64,000 bases of DNA from Neodothiora populina (Eukaryota), in assembly GCF_041146345.1 (NCBI RefSeq), contig NW_027191415.1, positions 124,001 to 188,000 on the forward strand, in the 5' to 3' direction. Both the position numbers and the translations under genes were made by a program. The notes below the pieces were generated by a model, which was not told where the DNA came from, did no database searches, and saw only the letters and a list, made by a program, of their open reading frames with translations. Positions within the stretch are counted from its first letter, which is position 1; each line of letters begins with the position of its first letter. This document shows positions 59,302 through 64,000 of the stretch, piece by piece.

Positions 59302-61218
59302 CTACAGTTTCGCCAAGACTGTATTCCGCCCTCCCTTTCCCTTTCCCTCTTTTCTTTCCTCATCATCACCATCATCAAAACCATCAAGCAGAACCCTCTC
59401 CATCCTCCTCTTCCACTCCTGCACAAGCGCCTGATCCATAGCGTCAGCATCATAGCTGACATTGACGTCGATACTGAAGCTGTTTTTGTCTGTTGCGGAA
59501 AACGAAGACCCGCTTATGCCGACTAGGAACTCGCCCTCGCGGGCTCGGACGTTTTGTCGCGTTGAGAGGAAGTCGGCTGCGAAGGATAAGGGGTCTTCTT
59601 GCTCTTCTTCTAGGTCTTGAGTGCTTGTGGTGTGAGCTGAAGAAGAAGAGGAAGAAGAAGAAGAGGAGGAAGAAGAAGAGGAGGAAGAAGAAGAAGAAGA
59701 GACGTCGTAGACGCCCGACGCCCAGCCCGTCTTGCCCACCGAGCTGATACCGCATGTTCCTCTCTGGGGTGGCGCGCGAGGCACAAGACTGCCCTGAGGC
59801 GAGGCGTTATTGGCGCCCGTCAAAGCCTGCTTGAGCGCCGTCGTGGGCAGCTTATCCCTCGCGCGCTCGACGGAGGAGATGTAGTTCGTCGCTAGCATTC
59901 TGCCGGCGCCTCTGCTGCCCATGTAGGAGATCGGGTCTGTTTCAGCAGCAGGCGAAGAGGCGCGCTTCTGGTACAGGCGGAGTTGGCGGTGGGATTGGCG
60001 CACGAGGACTCTGAATCTTTGAGCGGTGTTGAGGTCGCTGGGCAGGAAGGGCAGGGAGACGCCGCCGTCGGAGAAGGCGAGCATCATGCTGTTTGGCTCT
60101 TCGTGGTGGTTGAAGAACGGACGGGGGTTGATGGGGAAGCCGCCGAGGAAATTTTTGCGCTGCGAGAGGGGGATCGAGGGGAAGGCGCTTTCGTACATGG
60201 ACATCATGACTAAGGCTACTAGGGTGAAGCATCCGGCTCCTATGCTCGTTCTTGTTTCGCGACATAGACTGTAGAGACGGCGAGAGGCGTGGGGTGATAG
60301 TTTCAGTGGACAAGTCAAGGTCCTTGTCGGAGGCCTGACGCTGTAGTCGAAGAGTTTTGGGTATGTATGAGCAAGGTTCGTAAGGGCAGGGGAAGGAGTG
60401 GGTTTGAGAAGGGGGTTGGGGAACTCGGTTGGCAGAGGCCTTTTGACATGGCGCAAGACTATGGTGAGAAGCCAGAACCAGCGCTGCTTTGCCCGACACC
60501 CGCTTAGACGTGGGTAGAGGTCTTCTTGTGGCAAAGGTAGTCGCTTGCGGATTGCAGCCAGGTCACAGGCGTCCGTCAGCTGCTTGTTCAAGTCCGAGAG
60601 AGGAAGATTGAGGAGACGGAGGAAATGGCTCGTCCATGAGAAGTTGGTGAGTCCGTCGGAGATCTCGTGGCTGATGACAAACAAAAAGCTCAACTTCGCT
60701 TTACCGTCAGGGCCTGGATGGAAAGGTAGCACGAAGAGCTTTGCCAGTGCCTCTGCCGAGTCGAATGTTCTGCCGGTGTTTTGGGCATGCAGGAACAACT
60801 TGTTGCCATCCAATTGGCTGTAGTGGTCTTGAGTATATACAATCTGACTCGACGCCTCCTGAATGGCCTCTTGGGGCGTTCGAGGAGGACTCAAAAGGAA
60901 GAACCTGTTGTGTGAGGCGTGGTCCGATATCATGTACTTTTGCTTGTTGACTGCCTTGCACATGAGAAGAACATGATGCAATCGTATGAGTGCCCAAGCA
61001 GTCTCGATTCTCCTGCGAAACTGTGTCTGAGATAGATGACATTTGACTTGCAATTCGAGAAGTGCATTGATGTCGGCTCGCCCCTCAAAGTATCGACCGT
61101 CGGTATCGAATGCACTTTCCACAAGTCCTAGTGGCCGATAGATTACAGTCCGTTTTTTGTCCTTTGTCTCATGCCATGAGTGGTAGTTGTTGGCGTACTG
61201 GTCCAGCCAGTGAGGCAT
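59302..61218 (-). CDS. Putative CoA-dependent acyltransferase (alcohol O-acetyltransferase/condensation-like fold) with PTS1-like -AKL
   Basis: 638-aa intronless ORF; RPLGLVE N-terminal motif, HxxxDG motif FVISHEISDGLT, poly-Ser insert. Confidence 0.72.
   Translation of the reverse strand: MPHWLDQYANNYHSWHETKDKKRTVIYRPLGLVESAFDTDGRYFEGRADINALLELQVKCHLSQTQFRRRIETAWALIRLHHVLLMCKAVNKQKYMISDHASHNRFFLLSPPRTPQEAIQEASSQIVYTQDHYSQLDGNKLFLHAQNTGRTFDSAEALAKLFVLPFHPGPDGKAKLSFLFVISHEISDGLTNFSWTSHFLRLLNLPLSDLNKQLTDACDLAAIRKRLPLPQEDLYPRLSGCRAKQRWFWLLTIVLRHVKRPLPTEFPNPLLKPTPSPALTNLAHTYPKLFDYSVRPPTRTLTCPLKLSPHASRRLYSLCRETRTSIGAGCFTLVALVMMSMYESAFPSIPLSQRKNFLGGFPINPRPFFNHHEEPNSMMLAFSDGGVSLPFLPSDLNTAQRFRVLVRQSHRQLRLYQKRASSPAAETDPISYMGSRGAGRMLATNYISSVERARDKLPTTALKQALTGANNASPQGSLVPRAPPQRGTCGISSVGKTGWASGVYDVSSSSSSSSSSSSSSSSSSSSSAHTTSTQDLEEEQEDPLSFAADFLSTRQNVRAREGEFLVGISGSSFSATDKNSFSIDVNVSYDADAMDQALVQEWKRRMERVLLDGFDDGDDEERKEGKGKGGRNTVLAKL
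59638..59702. repeat. (GAA/GAG)n tract encoding ~20 Ser on the minus strand
   Basis: gaagaagaagaggaagaagaagaagaggaggaagaagaagaggaggaagaagaagaagaagaga. Confidence 0.9.
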
Positions 61219-61396
61219 CTCTATAGTGGCGAATTTAGATATAATGTATATAGCCGATGTAGTCCACTGACCTGGACGTGAAGTACACTCCCGGCGTGAA
61301 AATCGTCCGGGACAGAGATCAAAGGGTTAGCTCCTTAGATACTACTCAAGGGCAGTCTGCGAGCTCCACTGTAATCACACAAATGCTTGATCGTCG

Positions 61397-61422
61397 ATAT
61401 ATATATATATATATATATATAT
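61397..61422. repeat. (AT)n microsatellite in the divergent promoter region
   Basis: About 13 perfect AT units. Confidence 0.92.
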
Positions 61423-61749
61423 GTATACCCTACCTTGATGTAGTACGAGTAGATCTGTTGTAGCACCATACCGGCATGTCTTCGGGTAGATCACATGCGC
61501 ATGTACCGCGCTATCCCAATCCGGTCGGGTTGCGCCACCTCTCATTGACACCTCAAACGGAGGAATGCAAGTGATTATTCATCCTTTTCCTTGGTTTTCC
61601 TTTTCTATCATCTTTGACTGACCGCATAACACCTTGCCTCACAGATAGTCCGTCAAATTAGAACAGAAAACTCCAGAAACAGAGTACAGCAAAGCAAGAA
61701 GGAAAAAGAAACAAAAGAAGAGACAGTGAGCCTCTAGCAAGAGAGCAGG

Positions 61750-63393
61750 ATGAGCGAAGAGGCAGCACTACAAGCAAGGATCGCAGCGCTGGCTGGTAAG
61801 ATCAACCACCTCTCGTCGTCATCGAGCGCGAAATCACTCAACACTGGCGCAAGAAGTAACACGTCGAAAACAGGGCGCATCAATCAGCAGAAACAGAGCG
61901 ATGGCTCTGCGCCGACTAACGCATATAGCTACAGCGGCGGTCATCGTGCAGCTCAGAACAGATGGACTCCGTATGCGCAGTCGCATTCACCGTATCCTAG
62001 CAGAGGAGGAGATGGCGCTTATCAGCGACCGTCGTATTCTGCCCATCGCAACAAAACCCTCGTAGTGAATAATGCTGCTGGACCTCCTTCTAAAACCGAT
62101 GACTCACATGTGACGCCAGCGGCAGATTCGCCTGGCTGGGTGTCAAGACGTGATCGAGGTCATATGCAACTCATCAACACGAACGTCTACGATCAGAAAA
62201 TGCAGCAGAAACAAATGGACATGGAGGAAACAGCGAAACAGAAGCAGCGTCTGAGAAACGAACAGGAGAAAAACAAGGTCATTAGACATGTACACGGAAC
62301 CACCACTGCTCAGCCAAACTCGGCGGCTGCAGCAACTCCTCGAGATATCGTCATCAACGATCTGAAGTTCCGCGTGTCCACTGATGGCAGTAAACTCATA
62401 CGTGTGTTTGGTGAGTCTCCAGATCGGTTTGGCCTTCCAGGATATACGCTCAATGAAGCAGACGGCTCCAACAAGGACGCGCAATCCACTCCAAAACAAG
62501 CGAAAGTCGCAGGTGTCACTTTTCATCGCAGCAAGCATGGAAATCTATACCGCGCTGGCCTTGTAAAGAGCTCCATGAGGTACTCCGCAAAGCCTCACCT
62601 GGGCACCATTCGGTCACTTACTGACCGCGACAGAAAAACAAAACCGGCAAAGAGCGTGAAGCTTTGTCCAAAATTCACATCTACTGGTACCCGTTCTTCC
62701 ATAACATCTCTGGCCAGTCGACGATTGACAGGAAGACATGAGACGAATCCTCTCCTGAATACTGTTGGTAGGCCCGATGGACAATCACTGACATTGAATG
62801 CAGGTATATGCCCTCTTGGGCCGCGTTGCCGGTTCACCCACGACGTCAGCAGGATCGCAATATGTCCGCATTTTCTGCGCCACGGAGAATGCGCCGCCGG
62901 AGATGAGTGTAACCTTTCGCATGACCTCACCCCTGAACGTGTTCCCTGGTGCATACATTTCATCCGTGGTCACTGTACCAAGGAAGACTGTCGCTTTCTG
63001 CACGTCCGTCCCAGTTCGACTGCACCTGTCTGCGGCCCCTTTGCCACCATGGGGTACTGCGAAAAGGGCGCCGAATGTCAAGGTCGTCACGTGAATGAAT
63101 GTCCAGATTATGCTAACACAGGTGTTTGTCGTAAACGCGATTGCCGTCTGCCTCATGTTGACAGTGTTGCGAACAAGCGCAGGGCAGAAGCGGTCAAGGT
63201 TGGCGACTCACAAGGTAGTCCCAACGCCATTGCCAATGATGCTTCTGATCTGTCCAGTGACGAAGACGACTATCAAGAGATTGACTCTGACGATGTCGAC
63301 TCTGATGACCTGGATGAGGAGGATGTGATCATGACTGGCTCTGGCCTACAAAGCCACGAGCTCTCTCAGCAACAAGACTTCATTTCCTTTTGA
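61750..63393 (+). CDS. Tandem CCCH zinc-finger protein (ZC3H3/Red5-like); probable introns 61796..61873, 62411..62461, 62580..62633, 62687..62803
   Basis: Five C-x7/8-C-x4/5-C-x3-H fingers after splicing; HMQLINTNVYD and TFHRSKHGNLYR motifs; acidic tail. Confidence 0.88.
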   Translation: MSEEAALQARIAALAGKINHLSSSSSAKSLNTGARSNTSKTGRINQQKQSDGSAPTNAYSYSGGHRAAQNRWTPYAQSHSPYPSRGGDGAYQRPSYSAHRNKTLVVNNAAGPPSKTDDSHVTPAADSPGWVSRRDRGHMQLINTNVYDQKMQQKQMDMEETAKQKQRLRNEQEKNKVIRHVHGTTTAQPNSAAAATPRDIVINDLKFRVSTDGSKLIRVFGESPDRFGLPGYTLNEADGSNKDAQSTPKQAKVAGVTFHRSKHGNLYRAGLVKSSMRYSAKPHLGTIRSLTDRDRKTKPAKSVKLCPKFTSTGTRSSITSLASRRLTGRHETNPLLNTVGRPDGQSLTLNAGICPLGPRCRFTHDVSRIAICPHFLRHGECAAGDECNLSHDLTPERVPWCIHFIRGHCTKEDCRFLHVRPSSTAPVCGPFATMGYCEKGAECQGRHVNECPDYANTGVCRKRDCRLPHVDSVANKRRAEAVKVGDSQGSPNAIANDASDLSSDEDDYQEIDSDDVDSDDLDEEDVIMTGSGLQSHELSQQQDFISF

Positions 63394-64000
63394 TATGTAT
63401 CTTTGGCCGCACGATCGCGCATTTGGCGCCGGAGGGAGTTTTGGGCCTTTGCTAGGCCTTTCATTGATACCCTGCCTCTGGACTTGTTCTCGGCTTGGAT
63501 AGCTATCGATTCTTTATGTCGACTAGTAGATAATAAGCAACAGAAATAAAAAAAATCACTACTATATATATTACTGTCCACTTGCTTGACTCCCATGACC
63601 GCATTAGACAGGTTGCGCTTGTTCATCTATCCCCAGCCTTCTGAATCCACAGCAAAGCCCCCTTGCCCCTCGCGGCTTCTATAAACAGTAACCCATTACG
63701 AGCGCTATACTCAATCACGAGTAGATACAGCAGGAATAGGATGGAGAAATGTCGACTGCGACACAATATGTTGGCTTGGCCCGGTGGCACAGCCTCAAAT
63801 CCGACAGCTCCTCCGCAAGTCAGCCAACAGCGTTTACCCCGACCGGTTGATCGTCATGAGACACGGTAGGTATGGATGGATCAAGCACCGAGCAATACTC
63901 GAGTACAAAGAGAAATCTCCAGTGGTTGCACGCCTTGGGAGCTAGAAGACCCAATCGCGAGAATTATATACAACTCTGACGGCGATCCACCCAGGCTTTC

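What the first reader, a model, noticed from the sequence alone, without database searches (positions are those of the whole stretch)
61750..62840. All four apparent introns of a CCCH RNA-surveillance-type gene are 3n and stop-free; one splits zinc finger 1
Seen: four GT..CAG segments of 78 (61796-61873), 51 (62411-62461), 54 (62580-62633) and 117 nt (62687-62803). Introns 3 and 4 have clear ACTGAC branch sites; those of 1 and 2 are weaker. Each is a multiple of 3 with no in-frame stop, so the unspliced RNA is one 547-aa ORF. Removing intron 4 builds CPKFTSTG|ICPLGPRCRFTH (C-x8-C-x5-C-x3-H); retaining it inserts 39 aa into that finger. Four of four being 3n has a ~1/81 chance before requiring no stops. 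Known: 3n stop-free introns escape NMD and tend to be under-represented, and ZC3H3/Red5 belong to PAXT/MTREC, which targets aberrant and unspliced RNA. Inference: combinatorial intron retention could give up to 16 translatable isoforms and toggle one RNA-binding finger, possibly as feedback on nuclear RNA decay.
Basis: partly seen in the sequence, partly recalled or inferred. Interest (0 to 1): 0.75.

Follow-up and report, generated by a model that had tools for sequence, protein, structure and literature searches.

The report
Frame-keeping introns in a zinc-finger gene
A fungal gene for a five-zinc-finger RNA-binding protein has short introns that, in this species and in relatives from several fungal classes, keep the reading frame when left unspliced, which suggests that unspliced messages are meant to stay translatable.

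Summary
The ORF at 61750-63393 (547 aa) is open, and the four GT..AG segments sit at the stated coordinates (78, 51, 54, 117 nt). All are 3n and stop-free; the joint chance is about 2e-4. They are real introns. Homologues lack them, and removing them restores conserved junctions and a canonical C-x8-C-x5-C-x3-H finger.

- Intron 2 is 3n in 35 of 38 clusters, intron 3 in 33 of 43, and intron 4 in 35 of 44.
- Intron 1 is 3n in only 5 of 15, as chance predicts.
- In-frame stops are depleted: 51 against 120 and 104 in the other frames.
- Substitutions show no codon periodicity, so only frame and openness are conserved.
- Intron 4 has a conserved non-consensus donor and is retained in some transcript-like contigs.

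Best reading: inefficiently spliced introns selected to stay translatable. The nearest precedent is yeast PTC7. There are no RNA or protein data, the Red5/ZC3H3 link is untested, and feedback on RNA decay remains speculation.

The parts
61750..63393 (+). Whole gene from ATG to stop. Unspliced it is one 547-aa ORF. Spliced at the four introns it would give 447 aa.
   Evidence: ORF. (alignment with homologues); the public model P0001 has 486 aa, removing introns 1-3 and keeping intron 4.
61796..61873 (+). Intron 1: 78 nt, phase 1, donor GTAAGA, 3n and stop-free here. It lies inside a confidently predicted N-terminal helix of the protein.
   Evidence: Frame not conserved in relatives: 3n in 5 of 15 clusters, absent in 12. 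Helix 3-26 of orthologue P0030, with the intron site at residue 16.
62411..62461 (+). Intron 2: 51 nt, phase 1, donor GTGAGT, 3n and stop-free. It falls in a loop of a small predicted beta domain.
   Evidence: 3n in 35 of 38 clusters, with 27 also stop-free. Removed exactly in transcript-like contigs L038, L043 and L049. Loop after strand 200-203 of P0030.
62580..62633 (+). Intron 3: 54 nt, phase 2, non-consensus donor GTACTC, branch site ACTGAC at 62620-62625, 3n and stop-free. It falls in a low-confidence linker.
   Evidence: 3n in 33 of 43 clusters, with 26 stop-free. The linker has pLDDT below 50 at residues 240-243 of P0030.
62634..62686 (+). Exon 4: 53 nt. It encodes the first half of zinc finger 1 (CPKFTSTG, from 62665).
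62687..62803 (+). Intron 4: 117 nt, phase 1, non-consensus donor GTACCC, branch site ACTGAC at 62787-62792, 3n and stop-free. It splits zinc finger 1 between C-x7-G and x-C.
   Evidence: 3n in 35 of 44 clusters, with 22 stop-free. The donor lacks G at +5 in 39 of 44 clusters. Retained in transcript-like contigs L038, L049 and L063, and removed in L043.
62767..62773 (+). Internal donor-like element GGTAGGC inside intron 4. It lies 36 nt from the acceptor and about 20 nt upstream of the branch site.
   Evidence: Such an element occurs in 22 of 44 intron-4 sequences against 8.4 expected from shuffles, 0 of 31 in intron 2 and 4 of 39 in intron 3. It is conserved in alignments of two clades. Function unknown.
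62804..63156 (+). Second half of zinc finger 1 (to 62841) and fingers 2-5 (62863-63156). Together they form a CPSF30/Yth1-like tandem CCCH array.
   Evidence: Pfam zf-CCCH. (Yth1 E 1.7e-15, CPSF30 E 3.5e-12). (weak fold matches to CPSF30 only).

Best explanation
This is the Neodothiora-type copy of a gene found across Pezizomycotina. The species name comes from the best database hit, P0001. The protein has an N-terminal region of no known family, a small beta domain, five CPSF30-like CCCH fingers and an acidic tail.

The gene has four genuine short spliceosomal introns. Introns 2, 3 and 4 sit at conserved positions. In most lineages their lengths keep exon 2, exon 3 and exon 5 in one genomic reading frame. 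In many lineages they also lack in-frame stops, while their sequences otherwise drift freely.

Inferred mechanism: these introns are spliced inefficiently or in a regulated way. Intron 4 has a weak donor in nearly all lineages sampled, and intron 3 has one in this clade. Because the retained segments are 3n and stop-free, intron-retaining mRNAs are not frame-shifted or truncated, and they yield near-full-length protein.
- Intron 2 would add an unconstrained loop.
- Intron 3 would lengthen a linker.
- Intron 4 would break finger 1 but leave fingers 2-5 in frame.

Selection acts on frame and openness, not on the peptide. Shown: the anatomy, the conservation of frame, the stop depletion, the weak donor, and partly spliced transcripts in relatives. 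Inferred: translation of the retained forms, and any function for them. That intron 1 is also 3n in this window is a coincidence.
For: Real introns:
- Distant homologues lack all four segments, and the junctions ALA|GRIN, RVF|DGSN, SSM|RKTK and STG|IC fit the family consensus.
- L038 is 99.8% identical to genomic L030 but lacks introns 2 and 3 exactly. L043 lacks introns 2, 3 and 4 exactly relative to L018 and L027.

Frame conservation, on 48 clusters from 80 loci:
- Intron 2 is 3n in 35 of 38 clusters, intron 3 in 33 of 43, and intron 4 in 35 of 44.
- Exon 3 and exon 5 are in the same frame in 40 of 43.
- Intron 1 of the same genes, as an internal control, is 3n in 5 of 15. Fisher tests against intron 1 give p = 3e-5, 4e-3 and 3e-3.
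- One further distant cluster (L069/L070) also has all three introns 3n.

Phylogeny-aware check. On the IQ-TREE tree, parsimony needs 14, 24 and 29 length changes for introns 2, 3 and 4, and 29 for the sum of introns 3 and 4. If each changed branch randomises length mod 3, the observed 3n counts are reached in 1e-4 (intron 2), 4e-4 (intron 3) and 0 of 20,000 simulations (intron 4 and the sum).

Stop avoidance:
- Stops inside introns 2-4 number 51 in the upstream-exon frame against 120 and 104 in the other two frames.
- Stop-free introns number 24, 31 and 25, against 15.9, 16.0 and 12.8 expected from shuffles.
- In 16 of 40 fully measured clusters the frame is open from exon 2 into finger 1.

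Other points:
- Not coding sequence: differences between 9 close pairs fall 93/99/93 on codon positions 1/2/3 in introns, against 53/31/225 in exon 5.
- Weak donor: intron 4 lacks G at +5 in 39 of 44 clusters, against 0 of 31 for intron 2.
- Retention seen: of 7 transcript-like contigs, 4 keep at least one intron. These are L011 (intron 2), L038 and L063 (intron 4), and L049 (introns 3 and 4).
- Structure: the intron 2 site lies in a loop and the intron 3 site in a linker with pLDDT below 50, while the unconserved intron 1 site lies inside a confident helix.
- Breadth: nearest named proteins place the clusters in Dothideomycetes, Eurotiomycetes, Sordariomycetes and Leotiomycetes.
Against: - The intron-encoded peptides show no amino-acid constraint, so a specific function for the longer isoforms is not visible.
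- Many lineages are closed. Among 3n introns, 8 of 35 (intron 2), 7 of 33 (intron 3) and 13 of 35 (intron 4) carry stops. One clade has TGA or TAA at the intron 3 donor itself.
- In 8 clusters, introns 3 and 4 are each non-3n but sum to 3n, although the read-through frame there holds 2-6 stops. Translation cannot explain that compensation.
- Retained introns in transcript-like contigs are not all open. The L038 intron 4 has a stop, and the L049 intron 3 is 64 nt.
- Sampling: the loci are the best 80 of 158 relatives, ranked by a tblastn search whose query was the unspliced ORF, so some bias towards same-frame loci is possible. Natural pairs argue that it is small. E-values for same-frame versus split-frame relatives are 6e-93 and 6e-91 (L046, L079), 7e-84 and 4e-83 (L029, L047), and 1e-81 and 2e-80 (L051, L039). 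The weakest kept loci are near 1e-63.
- Clusters are not independent.
- Lengths for introns 2 and 3 between anchors may include exonic codon indels. Intron 4 is free of this problem.
- The tallies include 4 introns taken from transcript-like contigs. Without them the counts are 34 of 37, 33 of 42 and 33 of 42.
Confidence: 0.55

Rival explanations
1. Coincidence plus inheritance. The introns are ordinary and constitutively spliced. An ancestor happened to have 3n lengths, few net frame changes have occurred since, and the sample is tilted towards same-frame loci.
For: - The window's joint chance of about 2e-4 is not extreme for a scan of very many genes.
- The loci are the best 80 of 158, from a search with the unspliced ORF.
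- Clusters share ancestry.
- 3n persists even where stops close the frame, as pure inertia would predict.
Against: - Lengths vary widely: 48-75, 42-93 and 72-124 nt. Parsimony needs 14 to 29 changes per intron, yet most are 3n. Simulations on the tree give P of 4e-4 or less.
- Intron 1 of the same loci is 3n in only 5 of 15 clusters.
- Stops are depleted specifically in the exon frame.
- Split-frame loci have E-values like those of same-frame relatives, far above the cut.
Confidence: 0.2
2. Damage limitation only. Splicing of these introns is error-prone. Selection keeps them in frame so that unspliced messages give a harmless full-length protein rather than a truncated N-terminal fragment without fingers. 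The longer isoforms have no role of their own.
For: - There is no codon periodicity or peptide conservation in the introns.
- The tolerated insertion sites are a loop and a linker.
- Weak donors are present.
- The trait has been lost repeatedly.
Against: - The non-consensus intron 4 donor is itself conserved in 39 of 44 clusters, and an internal donor-like element is conserved. This points to maintained inefficiency, not mere error.
- Intron 4 retention destroys finger 1, which is hardly harmless.
Confidence: 0.25
3. Retention is a feedback sensor. The protein is the Red5/ZC3H3 orthologue of a nuclear RNA-decay complex, and its own intron-retaining transcripts are substrates whose translatable escape adjusts the level or finger content of the protein.
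For: - Architecture as described for ZC3H3: CPSF30-like fingers towards the C terminus and an N-terminal region of no known family (passages of PMC2700372).
- One source names an orthologue 'Zinc finger CCCH domain-containing protein 3' (P0083).
- ZC3H3 and Red5 belong to PAXT and MTREC (passages of PMC7049725 and PMC8187409).
- The weak donor and the internal U1-like site fit regulated retention.
Against: - Orthology was not tested. A search among longer proteins found nothing.
- There is no expression data.
- Nothing in the sequence shows that the transcripts are decay targets.
Confidence: 0.15
4. The segments are not introns but lineage-specific coding insertions. The public model's treatment of intron 4 as coding sequence implies this for that segment.
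For: - All four segments are open and in frame.
- P0001 and several other public models keep one or more of them as coding sequence.
Against: - The boundaries are GT..AG and branch sites are present.
- Substitutions are neutral and without periodicity, at 0.33 per site against 0.23 at exon third positions.
- The segments are removed exactly in transcript-like contigs of relatives, including intron 4 with its odd donor.
- A 39-aa insert would sit between the first two cysteines of a canonical CCCH finger.
Confidence: 0.03

Closest known systems
PTC7 retained intron of Saccharomyces and relatives (Juneau et al. 2009, as cited in PMC7491326; passages read)
   Same: A fungal intron whose length is a multiple of three and lacks stops in each species where it is retained. 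Both spliced and unspliced mRNAs are therefore translatable. Loss of the trait goes with gain of a stop.
   Different: - PTC7 has one intron, and the retained form gives a protein with a different localisation. Here three introns of one gene keep the frame, across at least four classes.
- The encoded peptides here are unconstrained.
- One intron here splits a zinc finger.
- No RNA or protein evidence exists for this gene.
Exitrons (Marquez et al. 2015, PMC4484396; passages read)
   Same: Spliceable segments without stops, enriched for 3n lengths, with weaker splice sites than ordinary introns. Retention keeps the protein full length.
   Different: Exitrons lie inside annotated coding exons and show coding features such as prevalence of synonymous substitutions. 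These segments show none. They are ancient, conserved-position introns that are removed in the canonical mRNA.
General counter-selection of stop-free 3n introns (Jaillon et al. 2008, not read; as described in PMC2911113 for Yarrowia, passages read)
   Same: The same logic linking intron length mod 3, in-frame stops and the fate of intron-retaining mRNAs.
   Different: The direction is opposite. In Yarrowia 29.4% of introns are 3n (25.5% of introns of 41-60 nt), and over 90% carry in-frame stops. Here 77-92% are 3n and 50-71% are 3n and stop-free.
ZC3H3 / Red5 (PAXT / MTREC) and CPSF30 / Yth1
   Same: A tandem CCCH array most similar to Yth1 and CPSF30, placed in the C-terminal half behind an N-terminal region of no known family. 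This is the arrangement described for dZC3H3.
   Different: Orthology is not shown. Yth1 and CPSF30 are short proteins whose fingers start near the N terminus (chain residue 46 of 208). Here the fingers start at residue 254 of 448 in orthologue P0030.
SUS1-type retention through non-canonical splice signals in yeast (PMC3201863; only the search listing and the start of the abstract seen)
   Same: Non-canonical intron sequences contribute to retention of an intron in a gene of mRNA biogenesis.
   Different: Frame preservation across several introns is not part of what the abstract describes.

Membership tests
U2-type spliceosomal intron | GT..AG boundaries with a branch-site motif upstream of the acceptor | tested here: met
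   all four have GT..AG. ACTGAC is present in introns 3 and 4. Introns 1 and 2 have only weak branch-like motifs.
U2-type spliceosomal intron | Removal restores the conserved protein and frame | tested here: met
   homologues lack the segments and the junction residues match the family consensus. Finger 1 becomes C-x8-C-x5-C-x3-H.
U2-type spliceosomal intron | Removal seen in RNA | tested here: inconclusive
   Seen only in relatives. L038, L043 and L049 lack orthologous introns exactly. There are no RNA data for this organism.
Conserved in-frame retained intron (PTC7 type) | Length 3n and no in-frame stop, kept across species | tested here: met
   Intron 2: 35 of 38 clusters 3n, 27 stop-free. 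Intron 3: 33 of 43, 26 stop-free. Intron 4: 35 of 44, 22 stop-free. Intron 1: only 5 of 15 3n.
Conserved in-frame retained intron (PTC7 type) | Substantial retention in RNA | tested here: inconclusive
   4 of 7 transcript-like contigs of relatives keep at least one intron. This is not quantitative and not from this species.
Conserved in-frame retained intron (PTC7 type) | Both protein forms made and functional | not testable with these tools
   Needs proteomics, ribosome profiling and genetics.
Exitron | Coding-type evolution (synonymous changes prevail) inside a coding exon | tested here: not met
   differences fall 93/99/93 on codon positions in introns against 53/31/225 in exon 5.
Exitron | 3n, stop-free, weaker splice sites | tested here: met
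   Weak donors apply to introns 3 and 4 only.
ZC3H3 / Red5 | CPSF30-like CCCH fingers in the C-terminal part, N-terminal region without known domain | tested here: met
   Pfam finds only zf-CCCH families, at aa 370-423 of the unspliced ORF. Yth1 and CPSF30 are the best solved relatives; the description of dZC3H3.
ZC3H3 / Red5 | Reciprocal best hit to Red5 or ZC3H3 | not tested
   No yeast or animal proteome was searchable by name. The search among proteins of 959-2735 aa found none. One orthologue (P0083) carries the source name 'Zinc finger CCCH domain-containing protein 3'.
ZC3H3 / Red5 | Association with the Red1/ZFC3H1-Mtl1/MTR4 module and Pab2/PABPN1 | not testable with these tools
   Biochemical.
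CPSF30 / Yth1 | Short protein with the five fingers starting near the N terminus | tested here: not met
   The Yth1 match starts at chain residue 46 of 208. Here finger 1 starts at residue 254 of 448 in P0030.
Spliceosomal twin intron (stwintron; definition recalled, not from a call) | An internal intron interrupts the donor, acceptor or branch site of an outer intron | tested here: not met
   Read. The internal GGTAAGT/GGTAGG of intron 4 is not preceded by AG, and no second acceptor completes an inner intron. Transcript-like L043 shows one-step removal from the outer donor.

The most novel reading that the evidence does not exclude
Across Pezizomycotina, a CPSF30-like, probably ZC3H3/Red5-type RNA-binding protein gene maintains three deliberately inefficient introns. 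Only their length mod 3 and their lack of stops are under selection. The cell therefore translates a graded mix of spliced and unspliced messages, including a variant without finger 1. A conserved weak donor and an internal U1-like decoy site in intron 4 set the ratio, which makes the gene a read-out of splicing or nuclear-surveillance capacity. The compensating indels in introns 3 and 4 would then mark selection on co-retention of both introns around a 53-nt exon.
Probability: 0.3. Interest if true: 0.85.

Novelty: new variant of a known kind. Interest (0 to 1): 0.66.

Why it matters
Stop-free 3n introns are usually selected against, because their retention escapes nonsense-mediated decay. 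Few fungal genes are known where the opposite holds; PTC7 is the textbook case. Here three introns of one gene appear to have kept the frame through at least four classes of filamentous ascomycetes, while their sequences drift neutrally. That is a clean signature of selection on translatability alone.

If confirmed, this gives a tractable model for several questions:
- how weak splice sites and in-frame retention are maintained;
- whether retention is a tuning device or a safety net;
- how a zinc-finger array can be switched from five to four fingers.

There is also a practical point. Gene predictors mis-call these introns as coding sequence, as in the public model of this gene.

Tried and rejected
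- RNA evidence: no RNA holder was listed for 61600-63500.
- Own genome: none is held for this window, so no genome-wide intron control was possible.
- Earlier scan notes: none found by place, words or sequence.
- Antisense ORF as the cause of 3n: rejected. An antisense frame is open over exon 3 to finger 1 in 1 of 44 clusters, and no other sense frame is open in any.
- Coding insertions: rejected by the absence of codon periodicity.
- Intronic RNA gene: Rfam found nothing in 61300-63700 at E up to 1.
- In-frame alternative donor inside intron 4: the internal donor-like site is at a 3n offset in only 9 of 22 cases, so it is not a frame-conserved alternative site.
- Stwintron reading: not met (see membership test).
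- Fold of the N-terminal part: the AlphaFold model of orthologue P0030 has mean pLDDT 59.2. Foldseek against the PDB gave no match at E of 0.001 or better; the best hits were CPSF30 chains at E about 0.01.
- Red5/ZC3H3 link by sequence: a search among longer proteins found none. A literature search for Red5 in filamentous fungi returned nothing relevant among the 10 papers listed.
- First anchor set: it missed a clade with GSKLAR and gave a misleading 31 of 31 for intron 2. This was corrected to 35 of 38.
- Prior reports: none of the papers listed describes frame-keeping introns in this gene family. This is not an exhaustive search.
- Neighbour ORF 59305-61218 (-): no Pfam family.
Full report
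**1. What is in the window**

One search lists a single ORF at 61750..63393 on the + strand, 547 aa.

| Intron | Coordinates | Length | Donor | Phase |
|---|---|---|---|---|
| 1 | 61796-61873 | 78 nt | GTAAGA | 1 |
| 2 | 62411-62461 | 51 nt | GTGAGT | 1 |
| 3 | 62580-62633 | 54 nt | GTACTC | 2 |
| 4 | 62687-62803 | 117 nt | GTACCC | 1 |

All four end in CAG, are multiples of three and have no in-frame stop. ACTGAC branch sites lie at 62620-62625 and 62787-62792. With shuffled interiors, the chance of being stop-free is 0.41, 0.44, 0.67 and 0.15. With 1/3 per intron for length, the joint chance is about 2e-4. Taken alone, it could still be a coincidence in a very large scan.

**2. They are introns**

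- The best database hit (P0001, named by its source as a hypothetical protein of Neodothiora populina, 486 aa) is this gene with segments 1-3 removed at exactly these coordinates and segment 4 kept.
- In an alignment of 19 proteins, more distant homologues lack all four segments. The junction residues fit the family consensus, and removal of segment 4 gives C-x8-C-x5-C-x3-H.
- In relatives the orthologous segments are removed exactly in transcript-like contigs. L038 is 99.8% identical to genomic L030 but lacks introns 2 and 3. L043 lacks introns 2, 3 and 4 relative to L018 and L027, which shows that the odd intron 4 donor is used.
- Between 9 close pairs, intron differences fall 93/99/93 on codon positions 1/2/3, at 0.33 per site. 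In exon 5 they fall 53/31/225, with 0.23 per site at third positions. The segments therefore evolve as non-coding DNA.

**3. The gene**

- Pfam finds only generic CCCH-finger families.
- The finger array (finger 1 split by intron 4, fingers 2-5 at 62863-63156) is most similar among solved structures to Yth1 (E 1.7e-15) and CPSF30 (E 3.5e-12).
- The array sits in the C-terminal half, behind a region of no known family. That is the arrangement described for Drosophila ZC3H3 (passages of PMC2700372). ZC3H3 and Red5 are PAXT and MTREC components (passages of PMC7049725 and PMC8187409).
- Orthology to Red5/ZC3H3 could not be tested. A search among proteins of 959-2735 aa found none. Only a source name on one orthologue, P0083, points that way.
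- An AlphaFold model of the fully spliced orthologue P0030 has mean pLDDT 59.2. It gives a confident N-terminal helix (3-26), a long helix (124-165) and a small beta domain (184-235). Foldseek gave no match at E of 0.001 or better.

**4.

A scan of metagenome contigs with the protein alignment returned 80 loci, the best of 158 relatives. I located conserved exon anchors in all three frames (improved). I annotated splice sites and collapsed the loci, plus the window, into 48 clusters at 97% or more identity of exon 5. Nearest named proteins place the clusters in Dothideomycetes, Eurotiomycetes, Sordariomycetes and Leotiomycetes.

| Intron | Clusters where present | 3n | 3n and stop-free |
|---|---|---|---|
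| 2 | 38 | 35 | 27 |
| 3 | 43 | 33 | 26 |
| 4 | 44 | 35 | 22 |

- Exon 3 and exon 5 share a genomic frame in 40 of 43 clusters.
- One more distant cluster, L069/L070, read by eye, also has all three introns 3n.
- My first anchor set had missed one clade and gave a misleading 31 of 31 for intron 2. The corrected figure is 35 of 38.
- Four of the tallied introns come from transcript-like contigs. Without them the counts are 34 of 37, 33 of 42 and 33 of 42.

**5. Controls**

- Intron 1 of the same genes is present in 15 clusters and is 3n in 5 of them. It is absent in 12. This is the chance expectation, and it differs from introns 2, 3 and 4 (Fisher p = 3e-5, 4e-3, 3e-3).
- On an IQ-TREE tree of the clusters, parsimony needs 14, 24 and 29 length changes for introns 2, 3 and 4, and 29 for the sum of introns 3 and 4. 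Of these, 11, 12-16, 17-20 and 23-26 are multiples of three.
- If every changed branch randomised length mod 3 from a 3n root, the observed numbers of 3n tips would be reached in 1e-4 (intron 2), 4e-4 (intron 3) and 0 of 20,000 simulations (intron 4 and the sum). The counts of changes for introns 2 and 3 may include exonic codon indels. Intron 4 is free of that.
- In-frame stops are depleted specifically in the exon frame: 51 against 120 and 104. Stop-free introns exceed the shuffle expectation: 24, 31 and 25 observed against 15.9, 16.0 and 12.8 (first anchor set).
- The frame is open from exon 2 into finger 1 in 16 of 40 fully measured clusters.
- An antisense ORF does not explain this (1 of 44).
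- For comparison, 29.4% of Yarrowia introns are 3n and over 90% carry in-frame stops (passages of PMC2911113).

**6. Possible sampling bias**

The 80 loci were ranked by a tblastn search whose query was the unspliced ORF, so same-frame loci might be favoured. Three points argue against a large effect:

- Split-frame and same-frame relatives have similar E-values. These are 6e-91 and 6e-93 for L079 and L046, 4e-83 and 7e-84 for L047 and L029, and 2e-80 and 1e-81 for L039 and L051. The weakest kept loci are near 1e-63.
- Split-frame loci are present in the sample.
- Intron 1 shows no excess.

I could not sample fungal genomes independently, so this caveat stands.

**7. Signs of regulated or inefficient splicing**

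- The intron 4 donor lacks G at +5 in 39 of 44 clusters (GTACCC, GTACCG, GTAACT and similar). This compares with 0 of 31 for intron 2 and 10 of 39 for intron 3. In the window's clade, intron 3 also has such a donor.
- An internal donor-like GGTAAGT/GGTAGG lies 31-55 nt from the intron 4 acceptor in 22 of 44 clusters, against 8.4 expected. It occurs in 0 of 31 intron 2 and 4 of 39 intron 3 sequences. It is conserved in alignments of two clades.
- Of 7 transcript-like contigs, 3 lack introns 2-4 entirely (L026, L037, L043) and 4 keep at least one: L011 (intron 2), L038 and L063 (intron 4), and L049 (introns 3 and 4).
- On the model of P0030, the intron 2 site follows strand 200-203 in a loop and the intron 3 site lies in a stretch with pLDDT below 50. 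The intron 4 site is inside finger 1. The unconserved intron 1 site is inside the confident N-terminal helix.

**8. Reading**

The best-supported explanation is that introns 2-4 are inefficiently or regulatably spliced and are kept translatable. Selection acts on length mod 3 and against stops, not on the peptide. Retention would add a loop, lengthen a linker, or break finger 1 while leaving fingers 2-5 in frame.

The closest precedent is the PTC7 intron of budding yeasts, whose length is a multiple of three and stop-free in each species where it is retained (passages of PMC7491326). The segments are not exitrons in the strict sense, because exitrons show coding-type evolution (passages of PMC4484396). 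Whether the retained forms have a role of their own, merely limit damage, or feed back on nuclear RNA decay cannot be decided from sequence.

**9. What does not fit**

- Many lineages carry stops in 3n introns: 8 of 35 (intron 2), 7 of 33 (intron 3) and 13 of 35 (intron 4). One clade has a stop at the intron 3 donor itself. Recent loss with slower change of length can explain part of this.
- In 8 clusters, representing at least 6 lineages on the tree, introns 3 and 4 are each non-3n yet sum to 3n. Examples are 61+119, 62+118, 92+124, 53+94, 71+94, 86+103 and 80+115. The read-through frame there has 2-6 stops.
- Uncompensated states are few: L049, L071, L075, and the 117/118 variant within one cluster. 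Translation of unspliced RNA does not explain this compensation, and I have no explanation for it.

**10. Verdict**

Isoform function, the Red5/ZC3H3 identity and the proposed feedback remain untested.

Noticed in passing
window 62687-62803, and P0001: The public gene model of this locus (486 aa) removes introns 1-3 but keeps intron 4 as 39 coding residues inside zinc finger 1. This is probably an annotation error caused by the intron being 3n and stop-free with an odd donor. Public models of orthologues (P0005, P0022, P0023, P0024, P0039, P0054) likewise keep one or more of these introns.
   Followed up: partly
window 62767-62773; loci L018, L022, L027, L045, L051, L039, L001-L004 and others: A conserved internal donor-like element (GGTAAGT/GGTAGG) lies inside intron 4, 31-55 nt from the acceptor and about 20 nt before the branch site. 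It occurs in 22 of 44 clusters against 8.4 expected. It looks too close to the branch site to serve as a donor and may be a decoy U1 site. This is unexplained.
   Followed up: partly
L001, L002, L004, L015, L039, L047, L055, L062: Introns 3 and 4 carry compensating non-3n lengths whose sum is 3n, in lineages whose read-through frame is closed by stops. L001 and L004 differ by -1 in intron 3 and +1 in intron 4, with the total unchanged. This is unexplained.
   Followed up: partly
L046 versus L079/L080: Within one cluster at 97% or more identity, intron 4 is 117 nt in one contig and 118 nt in two others. This is an uncompensated 1-nt length variant at the tip of the tree.
   Followed up: no
L020/L021, L042; L009, L010, L012, L014, L035, L042, L044, L051: Intron 2 is absent from genomic contigs of two lineages (L020/L021, L042). 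Intron 1 is absent from at least eight genomic clusters. Introns 3 and 4 are present in every genomic cluster.
   Followed up: partly
window 61398-61425: A (TA)n microsatellite lies in the roughly 530-nt divergent intergenic region upstream of the gene.
   Followed up: no
window 59302-61218 (-): The neighbouring 638-aa ORF on the minus strand contains a run of about 24 serines and has no Pfam family.
   Followed up: partly
intron 3 across clusters: Intron 3 is in phase 2, where GTGAGT or GTAAGT donors would create an in-frame stop. Most lineages use GTATGT, GTACNN, GTCAGT or GTTAGT instead, and only 6 of 39 use GTGAGY or GTAAGT. In phase-1 intron 2, GTGAGT is the commonest donor.
   Followed up: partly
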